Shown here in pieces: positions 13,588-61,665 of a DNA stretch of 64,000 nucleotides (positions are counted from its first letter, which is position 1; the number at the start of each line of letters is the position of its first letter). Origin of the DNA: Flaccisagitta enflata (taxonomy: Eukaryota); contig OZ231126.1 in the NCBI GenBank assembly GCA_965153355.1, positions 37,572,001 through 37,636,000 of the forward strand, given 5' to 3'. The notes below the pieces were generated by a model. The model was not told where the DNA came from. It worked only from the letters and a program-made list of their open reading frames with translations, and made no database searches. Position numbers and translations under genes: made by a program.

Positions 13588-14729
13588 GGCAGTCGCTGAT
13601 GTTGTTGTTGCTGCTGCTATTGTTGTTGTCGTTGTTGTTGATTTCATCTTCCTGCTGTTGCTCAAATCATCTTGTTGCGGTTGTTATCATCATGTTAAAG
13701 TGGTCGTTATTTTCACATTGGTTTTGTTCTCGTAGGTATCATTTTGTTGCTGTCACTATCATCATGTAGAGGTTGTTGATGTGGTTGTTTTTATTGTTGT
13801 CGTTGTAGTTGCTGTAATTGTTGTTGTTGTTGTTGTTATTGTTGTTGTTGTTGTTGTTTTTGTTTTTGTTGTTGTTATCATTATCCGTCAATAAATTTCC
13901 TAACCTTACCTTCAACCGCTTTTCCTCCTCGTCTTTGCTCTCCCTGCAGTTTTGCGCGTAGCCTCGATTTTTGAGAGTTCTCCGTTTCTGTTTTAGTTTG
14001 TTTATCTCATCTTTTGAGAGTCCATTTAGTCTTTTGTTCAATTCCACGATGGACAACGTCGTCAATTCCTCCACCGTAACGCCTACCCGCTGGAAAAGGG
14101 CATGAAGGAACTTGAGTTTGTCCATTATATAGAAAGCTAGACAAGCAATACAGCAAGGCCGGATACACGGCCAATGCCATTTGCGGAAGGGTGAGCGGGG
14201 GCGGAAATGCGCGTTTTTACATTTTCCATCTCGATCACCATGGACGGACGGACGGACAAATCCTCTTATAGAGTTGCGTGTCAACTAAAAATTCAGATTG
14301 TGCATGAATGGATAAATGAATGAATGAATGAATGAATGAATGAATGAATGAATGAATGAATGAATGAATGAATGAATGAGTGAATGAATGAATAAAAGAA
14401 TGATGGAATTATGGAATTATGGAATGATTCAACGAATTAGTGAACGAATAAATGAAAGAATTCATGCATGAATGTCTACAAGTCGTGTCATCCTTTCTAG
14501 AGGCCTAGCTGGGCCTGGCTAGGCTTTTTTGAACCTGAAGAGTTTCCAATTCTGGATCTGCAACTTCAATGTCCTTGATCTTCCTCTTCTTCGCTATTTT
14601 CGCGTCTTCTCCTTCCTCTTCTTCTTCCTCAAAATCGTCGTTGATGTGTGAGGGTAGAGTGGACGAGGAACTTGGGGCGTCCGAGGCGTCCACGGGCGAG
14701 AAGATGGTCGACGTTTGATGACGCTTCAT
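12177..14729 (-). CDS. maf: Maf-family bZIP transcription factor (~178 aa); exons 14729-14535, 14089-13910, 12338-12177
   Basis: Extended homology region plus basic region [46 protein letters not shown], then zipper exon [39 protein letters not shown]; both introns are phase 0 GT..AG. An upstream coding exon cannot be excluded (open frame back to an acceptor at ~14748). Confidence 0.9.
12570..13169. mobile_element. TA-flanked MITE (TIR ACCATGGCAAAA...)
   Basis: Inverted ends, TA on both sides; a paralogous empty site at ~13640-13790 lacks the insert; internal sequence resembles ~29255-29302. Confidence 0.75.
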
Positions 14730-19770: not shown

Positions 19771-38675
<18,905 letters not shown>

Positions 38676-50756: not shown

Positions 50757-52093
50757 ACAGAGAACAAAGAAAGACAGAAAAAGAAAATGAAGAAAAAAAA
50801 GGGATGAGAAAGAAACAAAAAGCAAAGAATGATAAGGGCAGAGATAAGAAACAAGTGACGCGGGGTCACAATATTGTTTCGGACAAAGGGCAGGGGCAGC
50901 TAACCCCTATCCACATCAAACGCCCCACCCAACTCCCCTCCCTTTACAGACACACACACCAAAAAACTTCTAAAACACTTGTTTTCCCACTTTTCCACTC
51001 ATGCTCATTGACTGACGAACGGACCAATGGACGGACAAAGCCTCTTAAAGAGCTAAGACAGAAAGAAAGAAAGAAAGAAAGAAAGAACAGAGAAAAGAAG
51101 AGGTTTTGTCCATGCATTGGTCTGTTGGTCCGTTGGTCCGTTGGTCCATTGGTCCGTTGGTCACGCTCGAGTTGAAAACGCGAAAAACGCGTATTTATGA
51201 TGCTGCAGTTGGTATTGTTTGTGTGTAAGTGTTGGAGGGGGGTTGGGGGTGTGGTTGGGGTGAGGCAACGACATTGTGACCCCGCATCACTTGTTTTGGT
51301 TTCATTTGGTTATGTGTGTTGGTGTCTTTCGTCAATGGGTCGGCCAGTCAGTTACTTTTGAAAAATGGTTGTCTTATAACATATTTGCCAAATGCTAGTG
51401 GAGATAGGTTTTTAAATGCCCTTGCCCCCCCCCCCTCCCCCTCGTGACTAGCCCTAATCTAGCCGCTGTTTATGTAAATCTTCCAAACTGCAGGGAAAGA
51501 GAATGTTGGATTACAAGTGCCATTAAGTAAAATGCTGGTCAGGAAAAACTTTGTCAGGTAGATTTATGACAAGTTGAAAGAAGTGAAAGAAAATTGGGGA
51601 CCAATTTTCACCAAATTTTTAGAGTAGTTGTAGAATGCATTTACACATATATCCTTAATTGTCTAACATACATTGATGTATTTTCCAGCTGTCAAAAAAT
51701 ATTTGAACTTGAAAAGCTAATCTATTGCTGAAAATAAGAGTTTTTCACTGTTTTCTGTTATCTTTTTGCTATAGAATCTTCATAATTTTTTAAATTAGTC
51801 ATAAATTAGTTATTATTTGTATTTTTATTTATCAATTTATTATGTCTACCATTATTCAATATTTGTCCTGCTTTGATAGGCTATTAAAATATTCTAAACT
51901 AAAAAAATATTCAAAAAATAACATTTTTTGGCAAAAAAATGGGAAAAAATCTTAAAATTTCATCAGTTTTTATATTCTTCATATTGAATAGCATACTGCT
52001 GAATAAATATAACAAGGTTTTAAAAAACTTAGTCATCATTTTTTTAGTAAGATAGGTTAAGATGTGTAGATAAGAAAAATAGGTCTATCAAAG

Positions 52094-53015
52094 TGTTAGA
52101 AATGTATGTTCGTCCGTCTGTTAAGTGTGTGTGCTTTTGTTTCTTTGCGTGCTTTTGGCTTTTCCTCTTTTCTTATTATTCAATGCCAGTGTCTTTTGTT
52201 TCTCGCCATTTTTCATAATGAAGGCTAGATGGGTAACCATATGGTTGCGCCTTGTATTTTATGCCATTTGTTTTTATTACGTAAACAAACATACGTAACT
52301 CGTCTTCGTATCATCCAATTTTGGATTGATTGTTTTTATTTATGTACGGCATTGCTTCCTAGAGTGATTGATTGATTTTTCGTGATTGATTGAATGCGCC
52401 CTTGGAATTCACTAATTTCAATAATCTCTCATCTTTTTATTGCAGATGAACTTATGAACGGACAATTAACGTTAGTTGACATCGACAGACTGTGGGTTGA
52501 AACCAACGAAAGTGGGCCTAAAAGTAAGTTTTATGGACGCGTCTTTGCTTTTATTAACGTTGTTTTTATCTTGTCCTCCGGTCTGTTATTCTTGTCTTTT
52601 GCATTGTTGCATTTTTATCGCCGGATTTTAGTATGGTTTTTATCGCTTGCCCGATCAGCTTACTATGGGGATGATATGGATGAATTTAATGGGATGGGCC
52701 GGGGCAGGGGCAGGTATTATCAGGTGGCATGGGCTCTGAAGAAGATGAACATGTTGTCATGTGCTGTTTCTGTCCTTTATTGTGTCCTGTCTCGATTTCA
52801 TGTTATCTTTTGCGTTTGCTGATCACTATTAACGCCCACTTTCCCTTTCATTTTTCCCCCTCTCTTCAGTTGTTGAAATTTTTTATGGAATAAACGAGAC
52901 GATCACCTTCCTATTTTCCAATTCGGCCACCTTTCTTTCACCACAAGTCGTCAGTCAGCTAGTTGCCCATGGACAGTGCCAGCTGAAACTCGTGGGCGTA
53001 GTTTATATTTCAACA
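52094..53015 (+). repeat. 5' LTR (922 bp, TGTT...AACA)
   Basis: Matches 57592-58505; terminal TGTT/AACA inverted ends; AATAAA near 52888. Confidence 0.92.
52394..52822 (+). other. 142-codon hydrophobic ORF inside the LTR (identical copy at 57892-58320); coding status unproven
   Basis: ORF track gives identical translations; TM-like stretch VFAFINVVFILSSGLLFLSFALL and a hydrophobic C-terminus. Confidence 0.3.
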
Positions 53016-53076
53016 ATTTTTAAATCGACTCATCCCTTACGACTTTTCCCGACCCCCCGGCGGCGATTTCGTCGAC

Positions 53077-55797
53077 ATGGCGGCGACTAATGGCGACGAT
53101 AATCAGTCGAACGCATCAACGTCCTCTCGTGCGTCCTTCTTCGGATTGAATCAATGTCCGAGGACAGATACATTGTGTGGTATGAGGGACGAATTAAAAC
53201 GTGAAATGGGGCGATGTCAACAACTGTTTAACGCCGTTGCAATGACTGTAGTGGACACCAACGAGTGGGAAGATGCGACGGTGGAATCCGACGCAGCTAG
53301 ACACTGCTTTCGTGATATGGTGAATGACTACATCATTTTTGCTCGCCAAATGGCAACGGACAAACTGCCAGGCGACCCTCTTCGTTTCGCGGCGTCGAGT
53401 CTGCGGCGCCTCCGGCGCCAATGGTACGCAATGCGTTTCTTCGACCTCGAGAATTATCAAGAGGGTTTTCCATCTCTCTCTGACATCGTCCACGCGCACG
53501 GAAGACATAGTGGGAATAACCAACATCCTCATTTTTGTACCCCAACAAGACAAAATTGTGTCAATCAAAAATGCGTCCTTTCTCCTCAATTGCCAAATGG
53601 TCAATCGCCTCCAAATTCGCCCATTATATTAAGAGACTCTATCGATCAGTGGATGTCACAGATTCATTCGGATTATAGCTCGCGCATAAACATCCATGAT
53701 GATACATTGGACAATCTCGTCGACGCCGAGACACTCGCCAAAACCGTCAAAAGCAGCGTCATGAATGGTGCGGCGACGAGAGAGGAGGCAGAGAAAGGCG
53801 GTGGAGGAAGAGAGGAAGAAGAGGGTATGCAGGAGGAAGAGATGGCAATGAATCTGCAGCGACAGCAACGTGAGGAGTGGCGTCTGGAGCAGGAGCAGCA
53901 GCAGCAACGGTGGCAGCCGGAGCAGTGCCAAGAGCAACGCCGAGAGCAACAATCACAGCATATGCAGCCGGTGCGAAGACAGCCACAACTCCAACACGGG
54001 CAGTCGCAGCAGTCGGAGCTGTTGCAACAGCAACAGCAGCAGGAGCAACTACAGCGACAACAGCAAGCTGCAGCGTATAAAAAACAGCAGCGAGAGCAAA
54101 TATCTCAACAGCAACAGGCTGCCGAGCAACAAAGGCTACGGCAGGAGCAACTACATCAACAGCAGGAGCAGCTGCTTCAACAACGTCAATTGCAAGAGCA
54201 GTCACGTCAACAACAGCGGATTCAATTGCAACAGCAAGAGGCTGAAGAGCAACAGCAACAGCAAGAACAAGAAAGGACACGCATTCAACATCAGCAGCGG
54301 CTCCTTCAGCAACATCTGCAGCAACAAAATTCCGTGATTGCTCCTGTGATAACTGCTCATCCTCTTACAGCGAATTACGAACCCCTCAATAGTGGATACA
54401 TCAATATGGATGTTGGGCAACAGCCACAGCCTAAAGACAGCGATGCAGAGTCTGATGCATCAATGATAACAGCAAATGACGAAGCAGAGAAGACAGCTGG
54501 AAGAGAAGACGACCAAGGGGTAGCGGACGAGGCGAATGAGCGGCGGACGCATCCACAGCTCGCGCCATCTGCAGCCCTAGGGACGGCGCACCCTGAAGCT
54601 GATCGTCAACTGCATCGTCTACAACAAAATGCTGCCCAATTGATGGAAGAGAATGCGGCGCAGCAGTTGCAGATTCGACAGAAAGACTCGGAATTGCGAG
54701 CAGTTTATATGGAAATCCAAGATTTGAGAAGACGCCAACAGACGAATCATCTAGCTCGCCAAACTGCTCGTCAACCGGAAGTGGTGAATCTGCAGCCTCA
54801 GAGCGACGCCATCGAAGCCTTTTTAAAAAGAGCGTCTTACGATAACCTCATGCGAGCGAGGGAGGTTGGTCTGAGAACAATGGAGAGAGATAGACCAAAT
54901 AAGCCTCTGCAAAATCTTTCATCTACTGATTATATGATGTGGAAACGAAAGTTCAAAGACTCTGCAAAACACGATGGACTGACGCGGATGGACATTCTCT
55001 CAGAATTACCTAAATGGTTTTCTGGTCCAGCCAAAGAAATCGTTGAAACGGCGATGATTGGAGTAACGGAAGAGAGCGCCGAGGAGGAGTTGAATGTTGC
55101 CTTCAAGAAGATGGACCTACTCTTTGTGGCAAATCGCAGCAACATCCCGGATCTCTTCAACAAAATCGTCGCAAAGCCGAGGATTCAATCTGCTGACCAT
55201 GACGGACATTTCCATCTCGCATCAGTGCTGTTAAAGGCAAAGAAGATCGCGCATACATGTGGAGAATTGTACCATTGCTACAGAAATGAACTCTTGCAGC
55301 AAATTATCAATAATAGAGTTCCTCACCTGGCGGACAAGTTCTGGGAAAAATACCATGAATCGTTCGTCAAGGGCATCTCCTTCTCCTTTGACCATCTCGT
55401 CGATATGATTGAGACATGGGCAATTATCCAACGCAGCAAAGGAGTGGAAAGAGAATCTGCAGCAGTGGTAGTAGCGGCAGCGTGCGGCAACAAAACTCGA
55501 GCATTGTTGACGGAATGCTGCAACGTCTGCAATGACAATCACGCGACGGAGGAGTGCCATCAGCTCCTCGTACTTGATGTCGACGATAGAGTCCAAAAAT
55601 TGGCATCCCGTCGACTCTGTTTTCACTGTCTCAACGTCGGGCACTCGGCAAAAGGATGTGCCAATCGACCAACATGCCAAATTTGCAACAAACAACACGC
55701 TACTATTCTCCATGGACGGACTTACCCCAAGAAGAGCGATGATGAGGAGGTGAAAGAAGGGGGTGACGATGTCACCAACGGTGATAAAGATTTGTGA
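53077..55797 (+). CDS. gag: BEL/Pao-like Gag (906 aa) with Gln-rich region and three C-terminal zinc knuckles
   Basis: Uninterrupted ORF starting 61 bp after the 5' LTR; CNVCNDNHATEEC, CFHCLNVGHSAKGC and CQICNKQHATILH match the triple Cys-His arrangement of BEL/Pao Gag; capsid-like segment DYMMWKRKFKD...LSELPKWFSGPAKEIV. Confidence 0.88.
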   Translation: MAATNGDDNQSNASTSSRASFFGLNQCPRTDTLCGMRDELKREMGRCQQLFNAVAMTVVDTNEWEDATVESDAARHCFRDMVNDYIIFARQMATDKLPGDPLRFAASSLRRLRRQWYAMRFFDLENYQEGFPSLSDIVHAHGRHSGNNQHPHFCTPTRQNCVNQKCVLSPQLPNGQSPPNSPIILRDSIDQWMSQIHSDYSSRINIHDDTLDNLVDAETLAKTVKSSVMNGAATREEAEKGGGGREEEEGMQEEEMAMNLQRQQREEWRLEQEQQQQRWQPEQCQEQRREQQSQHMQPVRRQPQLQHGQSQQSELLQQQQQQEQLQRQQQAAAYKKQQREQISQQQQAAEQQRLRQEQLHQQQEQLLQQRQLQEQSRQQQRIQLQQQEAEEQQQQQEQERTRIQHQQRLLQQHLQQQNSVIAPVITAHPLTANYEPLNSGYINMDVGQQPQPKDSDAESDASMITANDEAEKTAGREDDQGVADEANERRTHPQLAPSAALGTAHPEADRQLHRLQQNAAQLMEENAAQQLQIRQKDSELRAVYMEIQDLRRRQQTNHLARQTARQPEVVNLQPQSDAIEAFLKRASYDNLMRAREVGLRTMERDRPNKPLQNLSSTDYMMWKRKFKDSAKHDGLTRMDILSELPKWFSGPAKEIVETAMIGVTEESAEEELNVAFKKMDLLFVANRSNIPDLFNKIVAKPRIQSADHDGHFHLASVLLKAKKIAHTCGELYHCYRNELLQQIINNRVPHLADKFWEKYHESFVKGISFSFDHLVDMIETWAIIQRSKGVERESAAVVVAAACGNKTRALLTECCNVCNDNHATEECHQLLVLDVDDRVQKLASRRLCFHCLNVGHSAKGCANRPTCQICNKQHATILHGRTYPKKSDDEEVKEGGDDVTNGDKDL

Positions 55798-57591
55798 CGG
55801 CAAGTGCAAATCCCATCAACTCCTTCTTTATGTCGTCCTTCTAATCATTCTCATGACTCTATCGTCAATCATTTTGGGAAAAAGTCGTCCTTACGTGTGT
55901 CCGCATCTTCGCTGTTTTTTCCTAAACCTTCGAGCGCTTAAAACGTATAAAAAGTAAAATCTCATTGCCAATTTCTATACGACCATCGATCTCCATTTGC
56001 GCCCCACTTGGATCTGGTGAATCTTGCCTCAACTTGGAGGCGAGTGTACGAAAGAGCCATGGAGCGGAGCATCTTCGAGTTGATGGAGAGTGAAAAAGGC
56101 GTCGATTGGGATCTTTGCTAATAAAAGCGGCTCTCGCCGTAAGAAAGAGTCGACTTCGTCTCTTCGACTTTTTTCCAAATGAACGTTTCCTTCTACCAAA
56201 TAGTGTATGGACAGATCGAGAAAGACTTTGCGTTTGATATATACGTCGGCGCCTTTTGCTACGCTGCACCGTCGTGATAGAAGCCTAGGGGGCGTCAGCG
56301 GCGTCAATGAGCGTGAATTCATGTCCGGAGGATTCATGTCCGACGCCTAAAAAAGGGAAGAATTCGTCATGGGACTGCTCGGAGATCGTGTGGATGGATT
56401 TGGACACGCAAAAATGGCTAAGTTTTGAGAGAGAGAAAGATGGGGGCGCATGGGTTTTTCATTTAGTAGCCTTGGATATGGATGAATTTTGCTCTGACTT
56501 GTTTTGACCGATAAAGAGCGCGCGATTTCATGTCTGGTTCTATTTGTCCATGCTATCTTCTCTTTCCTTGATACGACATTTGCGCGGTTCAATATCCTAA
56601 CAAACATTGATTCATTTCATATTAACATATGATTATACACGCTCCAATCGATTTCCTGTCCATTCAGTTCATTCGTGTCTACCAAAAGCTTCCAACGCAA
56701 TCGAGTCTTACGTCATTATGCATCTCGAGTGGCTCGTCAACTGCAGTGGCGTCTCCATCGAAGCCTCAAGCCCGGGTGACCAGTTAAGCCTCAAGTTGCC
56801 ATCCGACCTATCGCGGGCATGAAGGCTGGAACCGCAACCCAAGGCCGTGGCGTCGTGGTTCCGCTGCTTGATTTGCCCACATCACCAAACCCGTCGTCAT
56901 CCTCTCCTCGCATCTTGCTTCCGTTGACGAGCTGTTGGAGGATCGGGTTGCGCTTCTCCGTAATGGAGACAGTGCAGGTGATGTGTTCGTTCCTTGTTTG
57001 AGTATTTTAAGATACACTCGTTTTTAATTCTAGAATAGTAAATTATTAATTTATCTTTGTTAACGGTGCGGGTTTGAATTTACGAATGTTTTCGTATATT
57101 TTGTGTTTTTGTGTTGTGTTTATCGTGTTTTGTGGTTTGTTTTTACCGTTTTGTTTGATATTTTGAATTGTTATTACGAATATTTCGTATGAGTTGTATT
57201 TTAGTAGTATATGCCCCTTCTTATTATTTCCCACTCTCAAGTCAAATCCCAGGCTTGGAGTGCTCCAAGGCCCGTTTCCCCTTCCCCCCCCCTCCCCTTA
57301 ACTTTTACAGAACGGGTGCCTCAACCTCCTTGTCGCCGCCTCGTCTCCATCCGTTTCGTCGTTGATCGTTGAAAAATTGCTGGTGGTGGATCCTTTCCGG
57401 ACGGGAGTCATCATTCGTGCAGTCGTCGATCTGTTGATAGTTAGGGTGGGGATGTAAGAGGCGGTGGACGGGGGAGGGGCGGCCCAATTTTTTTTTAAGG
57501 AAGGTAGTATCGGTTTTTTAATAGGGTTTCCCCGACCGGAAACTAGATGTCGGATTTTTGAAATTCGTGAAATTCCAAAAATGGGGCAGAA

Positions 57592-58505
57592 TGTTAGAAA
57601 TGTATGTTCGTCCGTCTGTTAAGTGTGTGTGCTTTTGTTTCTTTGCGTGCTTTTGGCTTTTCCTCTTTTCTTATTATTCAATGCCAGTGTCTTTTGTTTC
57701 TCGCCATTTTTCATAATGAAGGCTAGATGGGTAACCATATGGTTGCGCCTTGTATTTTATGCCATTTGTTTTTATTACGTAAACAAACATACGTAACTCG
57801 TCTTCGTATCATCCAATTTTGGATTGATTGTTTTTATTTATGTACGGCATTGCTTCCTAGAGTGATTGATTGATTTTTCGTGATTGATTGAATGCGCCCT
57901 TGGAATTCACTAATTTCAATAATCTCTCATCTTTTTATTGCAGATGAACTTATGAACGGACAATTAACGTTAGTTGACATCGACAGACTGTGGGTTGAAA
58001 CCAACGAAAGTGGGCCTAAAAGTAAGTTTTATGGACGCGTCTTTGCTTTTATTAACGTTGTTTTTATCTTGTCCTCCGGTCTGTTATTCTTGTCTTTTGC
58101 ATTGTTGCATTTTTATCGCCGGATTTTAGTATGGTTTTTATCGCTTGCCCGATCAGCTTACTATGGGGATGATATGGATGAATTTAATGGGATGGGCCGG
58201 GGCAGGGGCAGGTATTATCAGGTGGCATGGGCTCTGAAGAAGATGAACATGTTGTCATGTGCTGTTTCTGTCCTTTATTGTGTCCTGTCTCGATTTCATG
58301 TTATCTTTTGCGTTTGCTGATCACTATTAACGCCCACTTTCCCTTTCATTTTTCCCCCTCTCTTCAGTTGTTGAAATTTTTTATGGAATAAACGAGACGA
58401 TCACCTTCCTATTTTCCAATTCGGCCACCTTTCTTTCACCACAAGTCGTCAGTCAGCTAGTTGCCCATGGACAGTGCCAGCTGAAACTCGTGGGCGTAGT
58501 TTATA
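57592..58505 (+). repeat. 3' LTR (914 bp, lacks terminal TTTCAACA)
   Basis: Copy of the 5' LTR up to ...GTAGTTTATA, followed directly by the TSD CAAAG. Confidence 0.9.
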
Positions 58506-59812
58506 CAAAGAGAAAAATAGCTGTAACTTTTTAAATTTTTGAGATTTTGCATTAATATTTTTTGCTACAAACATGAAAAAATATATGCTAGCATATGAAT
58601 CCATTGTTTTGTAAAAAAAAAAAAAAATTTTTTTGCCCTTGGTGAAACTGAACTGTCACGATAATTTTCATCATGTCATATTTGATTGATTGTGTTAGAC
58701 TCTTTACATGTACTTAAAAGAATGTTCCGTTTGAATTTGTATCTAAGAAATCTAACCCAGGTATAAGGTCAGTACTCAGTGGTTCGTGATATTGTGATAT
58801 CGTATTCAGCTAAGCACATATTGTTTTTAAACCAACATGCTAATTAGCGGATCAATCGCTGTTATCTGTTAGTGTTTATTTTTGCAGCTTGCATACCGAT
58901 AGAAGAATCAAACATCTGGTGCTGCCATCTGTCGTCGGGTCGCTCTCGTTGCATTCGTAGACGTAACATCATCTAAAAAAACAAACAAACAAAAATTAAC
59001 TCTTTGATTGCCTTTACACTAACCGTTAACAAATCTGAGTTCCGATAAACGATGAGCATGCACTGAAATACCATCATGTGAAAGTGTGAAAAAGAAAATC
59101 CTTTAATGTGCAACATTCGTCGGACATTTACACAAAAATAAAGAGACAAACAATTAAAACTCTGTGTAACTCTGTGATGACAAAACAATTTTGAGGGCAT
59201 GCGTGAAAGTTGGCTCCGTTGCAACGCGTTGTCCCTGTTCCTGTTGCACAGAAAGTGGACAACGCTGCCATCATGTACTTAATTACCTGTTATTGGAAAC
59301 ATTATCAATGTCATTTTTTGGTGATCTCGGCGATGAAAATCTAAGACTGTGACTAAAGCAGAGGAAAATGTGTCAAATATATAAAATTCAAGGCGTGGTA
59401 GACAAATCACAATTCATAGATAGAACAAAATCAAAAAGCAAGGATGCATTAACTCAAGATGTACAATATGTATACAGTTTTGAACGTCATGGTGATGTGT
59501 GGATAGATACATTAAAATAAGTTTGCATCATGGAGAGCTCACAAGAATCAAGATACATGTATGTACAGATTCTCAATTTCGACATTGATAATTATTATAA
59601 GCCATTGGTATGGAATCTACTACGCATGCTTTAATTGATACATGTAAAAGAATTTCAAATTAACATATACACAAATTTAAAAAAGTATAAGACAGTCGCG
59701 TTTGATAATTACCAATGAACGACGTCGCATTACAAATTCCAAATCCCATATCGGTTTCTGAACAAACAAATTATGAAGTCAAAATTTAATAGAATGGCAC
59801 GATCGAAGTATT

Positions 59813-59926: not shown

Positions 59927-61665
59927 TCCGATTTTGATGTGGATATTCACGATCGACGAAACAGAATCGTCTTGCTTCAATTCCGGAATGCTAATTGAAT
60001 GCATAAAAAAAGAGCGAGTAATGAATAATTATAATGGGCGAAAGATTCTAATCTAACGATCGAAAAAGAAACAAGTCTAACCGGCTTTCCATGTAGACAA
60101 AACTCTAAAAGAATGGAAGAGAAGCGATGTTTTTGACCGCTGAAATGAATTAATCGAGAAGAAAAATTTAAGGCGTTGTATGAAATTCATTTTGCGCTTT
60201 GAACTCTCCAGTTTCAGATTTCAGTTTTCTCCAATTTTGAATCGTCGCATTAATGATTTACAAACATCTTTAGGTGCGACAAAGCACCTCTATAACTGGC
60301 TGTGTCCGTCAATTGGTTGGTCTGTGGGGTAACGCATTCGTTCGACGATCCTCACGTCGCACCTTATTGGCCTACTTGGCCTTGTTTTACAGAAATCAAG
60401 ATTCGGAACATGGAATTTTATGGCACATTTGCGCTCGAATTCGTCTGAAATGTCTGGATTAAAAGCGATGTTAGGCCGCTTTGTTGCTCACTCACTTTTC
60501 ATTATTCCAACTCTTGAGCTTTAGGAACTAATCAAAATTATAGACCGTTAGGCTAACGTGTTATTAGAAAGGGATTTATATTAAATCCATTTCTCGGTGT
60601 CGCGATTAAATCTTCATTCATTAGTAGTCCTAACTTAGGTCACAGGGAAAGATCGACCACAAAAAATAGTTGCGGTCGCGCAACTCTATAAGAGGCTTGG
60701 TCCGTCCGTCCGTCCGTCCGTCCGTCCGTCCGTCCGTCCGTCCGTCCGTCCGTCCGTAAGTCAGTCTGTTCGATGTTCGTTGGTCAATCGGTTCGTCAGC
60801 ATGAGTCGAAAAGTGGGAAAACGAGCGTTTTTGGATACATTTTGCGTGTTTGAGTGTGTGTGGGCGGTTGAGGTGTGGATGGGGGTTGGCCGCCCCTGCC
60901 CACCCATCCTCAATGATATTGTGACCCCGCATCAATTTTTAGTAGTGGACACGCAAATCTGGTCTTTGTCCATCCATCTGTTGATCCGTCCGTCCGTCCG
61001 TCAATCAGCACTAGTCGAGAAGTGGGAAAACGAGCGTTTTAGATGCTTGTGTGTGGTAGGGGGCGTGGGGTGTGAATTTGGGTTTGGATGATTCTTCCCA
61101 CCCGTCCGCAACGATATCTTGAGCTCGTGTCACTTGTTTTCAAACCCCAAAGCCCAATATTTGTTATGTCTTTCCTCTCTCTGCTGTCGTTCTTGTCCTC
61201 TGCCATTTCTGTCTTGTGTTGACTCGTACCCTCCAATGCCAATGACAATGTTGACAAAGACATTTACATTGATCACAACAATTGATTCAGATGCATGCAA
61301 ATAAATAGCCACTTAATTAACTGGAGGACTGCAAATAATCTCTCGCTGATCTGTCGCCCTTGGTCTTACAACAACAGGTTCAGTATTGACGAGTTATTGA
61401 AAAAACCCATGGTAGATTGTAGCCTTGGTGTATTGATGGTCTGCCATTTCTTTCATGGGTCCTCACGACTCCATACTAGGGCTTTGTTGATGGGCCATTC
61501 TCCGTCTGCTTCGGTTCGCTCTTTGGGCATGCTGTATTTTTCTGTAAAAGATTGCCCTATAAAACCCCCTCTTTGCATATGTCATGTGAATTCTGATAAT
61601 AAATACATGATGTTTTCTTCTTCTAAAAACCTGAAGGATTAACATAAAGAAAAAGAAGCTAAAAG

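What the first reader, a model, noticed from the sequence alone, without database searches (positions are those of the whole stretch)
52089..58510. Young Gag-only BEL/Pao LTR element with an intact 906-aa poly-Q Gag and no pol
Seen: apparently identical ~0.92-kb LTRs, an intact CAAAG TSD, a PPT and one uninterrupted Gag ORF that stops ~25 codons after the third zinc knuckle. The remaining 1.8 kb shows no protease (DSG/DTG), RT (YVDD), RNase H or integrase motif that I could recognise. Known: canonical BEL/Pao elements encode gag-pol as one long ORF; Gag-only non-autonomous elements (TR-GAG) are described mainly in plants. Inference: a non-autonomous family that keeps its own capsid and borrows enzymes in trans, rather than a decayed copy.
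Basis: partly seen in the sequence, partly recalled or inferred. Interest (0 to 1): 0.8.

Follow-up and report, generated by a model that had tools for sequence, protein, structure and literature searches.

The report
Retrotransposon primed by its spliced leader
This is one of about 30 copies of a capsid-only jumping gene in a likely arrow-worm genome; it likely borrows its enzymes from a full-length partner, and faulty copies preserved in the genome indicate that both likely start DNA copying from their own spliced RNA leader instead of the usual tRNA.

Summary
The Gag-only element is real: identical 914-bp LTRs, CAAAG target duplication, a 906-aa Gag, no pol. It belongs to a family with 29 places on all nine contigs and 20 different target duplications; none of 34 loci has pol, and gag is under purifying selection. 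An autonomous BEL/Pao partner (at least 145 LTR junctions) shares the LTR at 92-95%, while the two gags are synonymously saturated.

There is no tRNA primer site. The bases after the 5' LTR pair with an exon junction made by splicing an intron inside the LTR, and this pairing covaries over six autonomous families. Eight aberrant insertions in two families carry the LTR end followed directly by the reverse complement of that spliced leader. Four of them run on into trans-spliced leaders matching published chaetognath SL1 or SL3.2. None carried an unspliced primer.

Best reading: Tf1-like self-priming, but from a cis- and trans-spliced leader, in BEL/Pao elements. Nine literature searches found no such report. 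Primer cleavage, a strict need for splicing and enzyme borrowing are inferred. The LTR ends TG...TA, and a decayed integrase tip survives.

The parts
52089..52093 (.). 5' target-site duplication CAAAG
52094..53007 (+). 5' LTR, 914 bp, ends TG...TA (non-canonical)
   Evidence: the ...ATA end abuts the duplication in 20 of 23 two-LTR sister copies
52446..52523 (+). 78-nt leader exon; its acceptor (CAG ending 52445) receives the trans-spliced leader, its end is a GTAAGT donor
   Evidence: SL1 joined exactly here in L105 and L108
52524..52869 (+). 346-nt intron inside the LTR
   Evidence: absent from the inverted copies in L105, L106, L108, L109; 11-13 nt of the junction in L107, L114
52870..52878 (+). 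3' part of the inferred self-primer (9 nt after the second acceptor)
52889..52923 (+). AATAAA and poly(A) site (about 52921-52923)
   Evidence: a 24-nt poly(T) copy joins this position in L105
53008..53020 (+). primer-binding site, complementary (13 bp) to the spliced junction, not to a tRNA CCA end
53077..55797 (+). Gag ORF, 906 aa, Q-rich middle, capsid-like helical region, three zinc knuckles
53842..54351 (+). glutamine-rich tract (43.5% Q); the partner's Gag has a longer one
55519..55713 (+). three zinc knuckles (Cx2Cx3Hx4C, Cx2Cx4Hx4C, Cx2Cx3Hx4H)
   Evidence: ligands invariant in 7 aligned Gags
56207..56738 (+). decayed remnant of the integrase tip and the spacer behind it
   Evidence: 65% DNA identity to partner, E 3e-46
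57171..57591 (+). 3' untranslated stretch shared with the autonomous partner at 93-94%, ending in the polypurine tract (57577-57591)
57592..58505 (+). 3' LTR, identical to the 5' LTR
58506..58510 (.). 3' target-site duplication CAAAG

Best explanation
This is a very young copy of a multi-copy, Gag-only BEL/Pao family that likely rides on the enzymes of an autonomous partner with the same LTR, and both likely prime reverse transcription with their own spliced 5' leader rather than a tRNA. Shown in genomic DNA: (1) element RNA receives a chaetognath spliced leader at 52446 and loses the intron 52524-52869; (2) the resulting junction is complementary to the 13 bases after the LTR; (3) DNA copies of that processed leader are joined base-exactly to the LTR end, as expected when plus-strand synthesis copies a still-attached primer too far; (4) RNA is polyadenylated near 52921. 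Inferred: the leader is cut 9-10 nt after the acceptor, probably by the partner's RNase H as in Tf1, to free the 3' end. The first DNA jump then uses the roughly 40 nt between that cut and the poly(A) site. The unspliced 3' LTR restores the intron in each new copy. The element's own Gag would help package its RNA, and the partner's Pol (likely made by read-through of a UGA) would supply protease, RT, RNase H and integrase. Co-packaging would explain how the LTR and last 0.4 kb were replaced by the partner's long after the two gags diverged.
For: Family and selection. Partner. Pairing of the post-LTR bases with a site 128-147 nt inside the LTR end, 11 of 11, in 9 of 9 LTRs from three families; 0-3 of 1000 shuffles match it. 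The same architecture holds in six autonomous families (A, B, C, D, E, J), and the spliced junction pairs as well or better in each: window -12.6 vs -10.0, B -13.5 vs -11.0, D -23.4 vs -18.0, J -18.4 vs -12.5, C -19.0 vs -18.0, E -17.4 vs -17.1 kcal/mol. In family B the intron has slid by one base yet gives the same junction. Fossils: 6 sites in the window's LTR family (reversed-pattern controls 0) and 2 in family D, found with a pattern predicted beforehand. L105 and L128 carry all 33 nt of published SL1, L127 all 33 nt of SL3.2, L108 SL1 without its first two bases. Five of the eight have intact 5-bp duplications. The same search for an unspliced primer gave 0.
Against: No RNA evidence: the raw-read run laid 0 reads, and contigs of two RNA runs showed no splice joint and may hold DNA. 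Equilibrium folding does not favour the primer helix in cis: probability 0.00-0.14 in the six spliced leaders, and forcing it costs 12.6 kcal/mol in the window copy. No fossils were found for families C and E or for a leader trans-spliced directly to the second acceptor. Unspliced RNA also pairs over 11-14 bases in every family. In three partner copies a weaker GT site pairs one base better than the donor used. L106 and L109 copied a cis-spliced RNA without SL, so trans-splicing is not required. No SL RNA gene was among the 12 of 25 genomic SL1 matches viewed. The LTR tree needs only one change between Gag-only and partner copies, so repeated LTR exchange is not shown.
Confidence: 0.8

Rival explanations
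1. Self-priming is real, but the normal primer is the unspliced 5' end (Tf1 style, transcription starting at the AG at 52868); spliced leaders prime only occasionally, and being long they are the ones that leave fossils.
For: Unspliced pairing is 11-14 bases in all six families. The site in the window resembles an initiator (recalled consensus). A short primer cannot be over-read, so it would leave little trace. Family C's unspliced leader folds the helix at probability 0.98.
Against: Even an 11-nt unspliced primer should convert the G-U position when copied; 0 sites show that conversion continuing into upstream LTR sequence, while the standing site matches the spliced form base for base. The intron slide in family B keeps the spliced junction, not the unspliced sequence.
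Confidence: 0.1
2. Another RNA (a tRNA fragment or host RNA) primes, and the fossils come from template switching of nascent DNA onto co-packaged spliced RNA through the 13-base match.
For: These RTs jump often: the fossils continue with jumps to poly(A), gag or pol. Half-tRNA primers exist in other elements (PMC6317226, passages). No tRNA library was searched.
Against: It does not explain why six unrelated primer-site sequences each match their own LTR junction, nor why all eight joins fall exactly at the LTR end.
Confidence: 0.06
3. The Gag-only copies are passive deletion derivatives whose Gag has no role.
For: 19 of 34 copies examined lack the full frame. The element derives from an internal deletion.
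Against: dN 0.0046 lies below the non-coding tail's 0.011. The frame has stayed open across dS of about 2 from the partner.
Confidence: 0.04

Closest known systems
Tf1/sushi self-priming (Ty3/gypsy chromoviruses); also predicted for plant Tcn1 and TAR/Houba
   Same: No tRNA site; the element's own 5' RNA pairs with the site abutting the LTR; cleavage would free the primer (PMC7175516 passages; PMC6317226 passages; bioRxiv 2022.12.06.519325 passages).
   Different: BEL/Pao superfamily, in an animal. The primer is not the first 11 nt but a leader of about 120 nt ending in an exon junction, built by cis-splicing and often SL trans-splicing. The flanking 'pretzel' helices are only partly present.
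TR-GAG of plants (PMC4350172, passages)
   Same: LTR element with target duplication, polypurine tract, a single gag ORF and no pol, in many copies.
   Different: 6.4 kb rather than under 4 kb; BEL/Pao Gag; self-primer site instead of tRNA-Leu; the autonomous partner, not found for TR-GAG1, is identified here.
Animal Gag-only elements: CM-gag of Culex (reference title only), MaLR and bhikhari (recalled)
   Same: gag retained, pol lost.
   Different: Other superfamilies as recalled; none recalled as self-priming.
BEL/Pao (Belpaoviridae) elements (PMC3118150, passages)
   Same: Partner Pol has Peptidase_A17 and DUF5641; Gag resembles DUF1759 clusters; three knuckles; 5-bp duplication.
   Different: Autonomous members here have gag-UGA-CT(N)-pol in one frame, a third ORF with no membrane segment, about 13 kb length, TA ends in two families, and form a long-branch clade of unnamed sequences.
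C. elegans Cer1 (PMC3315495, passages)
   Same: An LTR element whose RNA is SL trans-spliced.
   Different: Cer1 has a tRNA-Pro site and its full-length RNA skips the splice sites; here the spliced RNA supplies the primer.

Membership tests
BEL/Pao LTR retrotransposon | Pol with Pao-type domains in PR-RT-RH-IN order | tested here: met
   Met by the partner (Peptidase_A17 5e-28, DUF5641 3e-19; RT and protease only weak, 0.007 and 0.035); the window element has no pol
BEL/Pao LTR retrotransposon | Gag with DUF1759-type capsid and three zinc knuckles | tested here: met
   Knuckles; 60-65% identity to the partner's Gag in conserved blocks; Atlas top hits DUF1759 at 0.92. Pfam itself gave no hit; fold hits to PNMA2, copia and Arc capsids are weak, best E 0.054
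BEL/Pao LTR retrotransposon | LTR ends TG...CA | tested here: not met
   TG...TA in this family, its partner and family B; CA in C, D, E, J. Common rather than strictly defining
BEL/Pao LTR retrotransposon | tRNA primer-binding site (recalled as usual) | tested here: not met
   No TGG start; matches the element's own junction. Half-tRNA primers not searched
Non-autonomous Gag-only element (TR-GAG-like) | Many independent insertions with gag only and no pol | tested here: met
Non-autonomous Gag-only element (TR-GAG-like) | Length under 4 kb, Copia- or Gypsy-type Gag, plant host | tested here: not met
   6412 bp, BEL/Pao Gag, animal host; works like TR-GAG but is not one
Non-autonomous Gag-only element (TR-GAG-like) | Mobilised in trans by a partner's enzymes | not testable with these tools
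   Inferred from shared LTR, primer site and polypurine tract
Tf1/sushi self-priming group | Site after the LTR complementary to the element's own 5' RNA | tested here: met
Tf1/sushi self-priming group | Primer is the first 11 nt of the transcript | tested here: not met
   Fossil primers run through a 78- or 114-nt exon into a 33-nt SL
Tf1/sushi self-priming group | Three-duplex 'pretzel' structure | tested here: inconclusive
   Helix behind the site beats shuffles in D, E, J (0-2 of 200) but not in the window copy, A or C; the other helix in none of six
Tf1/sushi self-priming group | RNase H cleavage frees the primer | not testable with these tools
   Inferred by analogy (PMC7175516)
Tf1/sushi self-priming group | Ty3/gypsy chromovirus ancestry | tested here: not met
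   Partner Pol is Pao-type

The most novel reading that the evidence does not exclude
A whole BEL/Pao clade in arrow worms has replaced the tRNA primer with one that the host spliceosome builds: only RNA whose LTR intron has been removed, usually after spliced-leader addition, can start reverse transcription. Splicing would then be a switch for retrotransposition, with a Gag-only satellite family exploiting the same switch.
Probability: 0.55. Interest if true: 0.9.

Novelty: new variant of a known kind. Interest (0 to 1): 0.82.

Why it matters
In the papers consulted, self-priming is described for Tf1/sushi-type gypsy elements and predicted for two plant lineages. Here it appears in a third superfamily with a different primer, and the genome itself holds DNA copies of the primer, cap-end leader and poly(A) tail included, so the claim rests on more than complementarity. 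It ties retroelement replication to SL trans-splicing and shows how an intron can persist inside an LTR. It gives a cheap search rule, 'LTR end followed by the reverse complement of the leader', for finding the primer of any element that lacks a tRNA site. It also supplies a Gag-only family with its likely helper identified, so why a parasite keeps its own Gag becomes testable. TA-ended LTRs without a tRNA site would be missed or mis-trimmed by annotation that expects TG...CA.

Tried and rejected
Pfam on Gag: no hit. Foldseek on the Gag model (pLDDT 77, pTM 0.39): nothing at E <= 0.001.

First idea, that TTTCAACA after the 5' LTR is the true CA end and the 3' LTR is clipped: rejected, because the ...ATA end abuts the duplication in 20 of 23 two-LTR copies. 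An RNase H remnant glimpsed by eye in the tail: not supported (E 6).

Sequencing runs: the one raw-read run laid 0 reads. Contigs from two marine RNA runs and one unlabelled run cover the element but show no start, strand or splice joint and may be DNA.

Metagenome scan: 10 loci, five inspected, none showing both an LTR end and a primer site; one has the same UGA-CTA gag-pol junction.

Fossil searches with no hit: SL joined directly to the second acceptor, family C, family E, unspliced primer. SL RNA gene: not among 12 of 25 matches viewed. ARAGORN on the element: 0. Leader folding did not support a cis helix. Third ORF of the partner: no Pfam or Atlas hit, no hydrophobic segment. Earlier scan notes: none.

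No named BEL/Pao reference elements were available, so the clade was not placed among named lineages.
Full report
Observation. The element spans 52094-58505 between two CAAAG copies. The LTRs (52094-53007, 57592-58505) are 914 bp and identical. One ORF, 53077-55797, gives 906 aa with a Q-rich middle and three zinc knuckles. Pfam finds nothing in it. Its C-terminal third resembles DUF1759 (BEL/Pao Gag) clusters at 0.92 in the Atlas and folds as a helical domain whose best, non-significant, matches are PNMA2, copia and Arc capsids. It is 60-65% identical in two blocks to the ORF upstream of pol in an autonomous element. It is a Gag.

Family. A search of G000 with the 3' half found 29 places covering most of the query, window included, on all nine contigs; counts are lower bounds. 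I fetched 33 stretches. All are collinear with the window, some truncated or with insertions. None of these 33 nor L031 matches pol at E <= 0.001. Of 23 with two LTR starts, 20 have a 5-bp duplication directly after an ...ATA end, all different. 15 of 34 copies (33 plus the window) keep the 906-aa frame. Among these 15, mean dS is 0.019 and dN 0.0046. Variants shared by two or more copies are 20 synonymous to 11 non-synonymous (P 2e-7), and the non-coding tail differs by 0.011. Gag is therefore under purifying selection during the family's spread.

Partner. Five weak 3' hits led to elements of about 13 kb whose LTR is 92-95% identical to the window's. They encode Gag, an in-frame UGA, a 1350-aa Pao-type Pol and a third ORF. 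A partner-type LTR junction occurs 145 times, against 19 for the commonest Gag-only junction. 25 of 35 listed places have an unbroken 1348-1350-aa pol frame; I checked four of these as partner copies. The window's tail keeps a 65% remnant of the integrase tip (56207-56738), so the family arose by deletion. Synonymous sites between the two gags are saturated (dS 1.8 and 2.5), yet identity jumps to 93-94% from 57171 to the end. The simplest reading is an LTR replacement during co-packaging. An LTR tree of 25 Gag-only and 8 partner copies needs one change only, so one replacement suffices. A quick tree of 73 of 117 Pol segments puts the partner in a long-branch clade of 26 unnamed sequences.

Priming, first sign. 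The 5' LTR is followed by no tRNA-type site. The next 11 bases pair with a site 128-147 nt inside the LTR end in 9 of 9 LTRs tested from three families with different sequences; 0-3 of 1000 shuffles do as well. In the six families where both parts could be read (A, B, C, D, E, J) that site begins at a pyrimidine-tract YAG acceptor with a donor upstream. The spliced junction pairs as well as or better than the unspliced RNA, always up to the last LTR base. Family B has shifted the intron by one base and keeps the same junction.

Priming, fossils. One sister copy (L056, the same as L107) has its primer site rewritten to the reverse complement of the spliced junction. Two pattern searches found six such sites, with reversed controls at 0. 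After the LTR end they carry 11 nt (L114) or 13 nt (L107) of the exon; the whole 78-nt exon and a foreign 31-33 nt (L105, L108); or the inverted LTR from base 430 back to base 1 without the intron (L106, L109). A pattern predicted for families D and E found two more, both D. The foreign piece equals published chaetognath SL1 in L105 and L128 and SL3.2 in L127 (PMC2481426, table passage). That places the host among arrow worms by inference and shows trans-splicing at 52446. L105 continues into 24 T and the LTR from about 52921, marking the poly(A) site. L106, L107, L109, L127 and L128 have intact duplications, so they look like integrase products. In LTR elements the bases added after the LTR end during plus-strand synthesis are a copy of the primer (established knowledge, recalled), and these eight joins are exact. 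The matching search for an unspliced primer gave 0.

Against. RNA data did not test it. Folding does not favour the helix in cis, so a Gag chaperone or priming between two RNAs must be assumed. No fossils were found for C and E. Trans-splicing is not required, since L106 and L109 lack SL. Searches were exact-match and junction-specific. An SL RNA gene was not seen in 12 of 25 matches. Cleavage by RNase H and use of the partner's enzymes are inferred.

Comparison. Tf1 primes with its first 11 nt after RNase H cleavage (PMC7175516, passages; bioRxiv 2022.12.06.519325, passages). Self-priming is also predicted for plant Tcn1 and TAR lineages (PMC6317226, passages). TR-GAG elements are gag-only plant elements under 4 kb, the one detailed having a tRNA-Leu site (PMC4350172, passages). 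Cer1 is SL-spliced but has a tRNA site (PMC3315495, passages). Passages of PMC4402516, PMC3118150, PMC3601003, PMC12460157, PMC5753468 and PMC3286476 gave nothing on BEL/Pao priming. Nine searches (listings only unless named above) found no report of self-priming in BEL/Pao elements or of a spliced primer. The library lacks most subscription papers and Repbase entries, and no supplements were read, so a prior note cannot be excluded. The element works like TR-GAG and like Tf1 but belongs to neither.

Verdict. Observation confirmed, interpretation supported, and a larger finding beside it: a BEL/Pao clade that very likely primes from its own spliced, often SL-capped leader. New variant of a known kind; confidence 0.8; interest 0.82.

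Noticed in passing
L027:5163-7289 and equivalents in families B-E, J: Autonomous members carry a third ORF after integrase (709 aa in the partner), low in complexity, with no Pfam or Atlas hit and no membrane segment, so not an envelope. It is lost from the Gag-only family.
   Followed up: partly
L027:755-760; families A-E; L129: gag and pol lie in one frame separated by UGA followed by CTG, CTA or CTC in five families and one metagenome contig, a likely read-through signal (recalled).
   Followed up: partly
L105 (G000:C1:40379629-40382649): After copying the SL cap end, the DNA continues with 24 T, then the 3' exon and intron, and stops exactly at the intron's first base, as if the template were a splicing intermediate of the 3' LTR.
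   Followed up: partly
L106, L109, L128: Insertions made of one LTR plus an inverted partial LTR, with two identical left-type ends and intact 5-bp duplications. In L106 and L109 the inverted copy reaches LTR base 1, so the copied RNA began at or upstream of it.
   Followed up: partly
L115-L126: 25 exact genomic copies of SL1 (32 nt); the 12 viewed are followed by varied sequence and not by GT, like retrocopies of trans-spliced RNAs; some recur (L115 and L123; L117 and L124).
   Followed up: no
L031 (G000:C6:72196501-72206500): An older, decayed relative with the same Gag-only layout, about 71% identical, whose LTR is about 70% identical to the window's, the partner's and family B's.
   Followed up: partly
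L034 and L035 (G000:C2:14090401-14103300): A tandem of two Gag-only units sharing a middle LTR inside one GCGGC duplication.
   Followed up: no
L047, L039, L040: L047 has an N gap and shares flanks with two other copies on other contigs; possible assembly chimera.
   Followed up: no
window 50849-51297 and 60684-61140: Dispersed inverted copies of a short repeat family with (GTCC)n tracts flank the element at some distance.
   Followed up: no
window 13739-14284 (-), 33089-36635 (-): Exon-like frames resembling a Maf-type bZIP and an aminopeptidase (by eye, recalled motifs); host genes not analysed.
   Followed up: no
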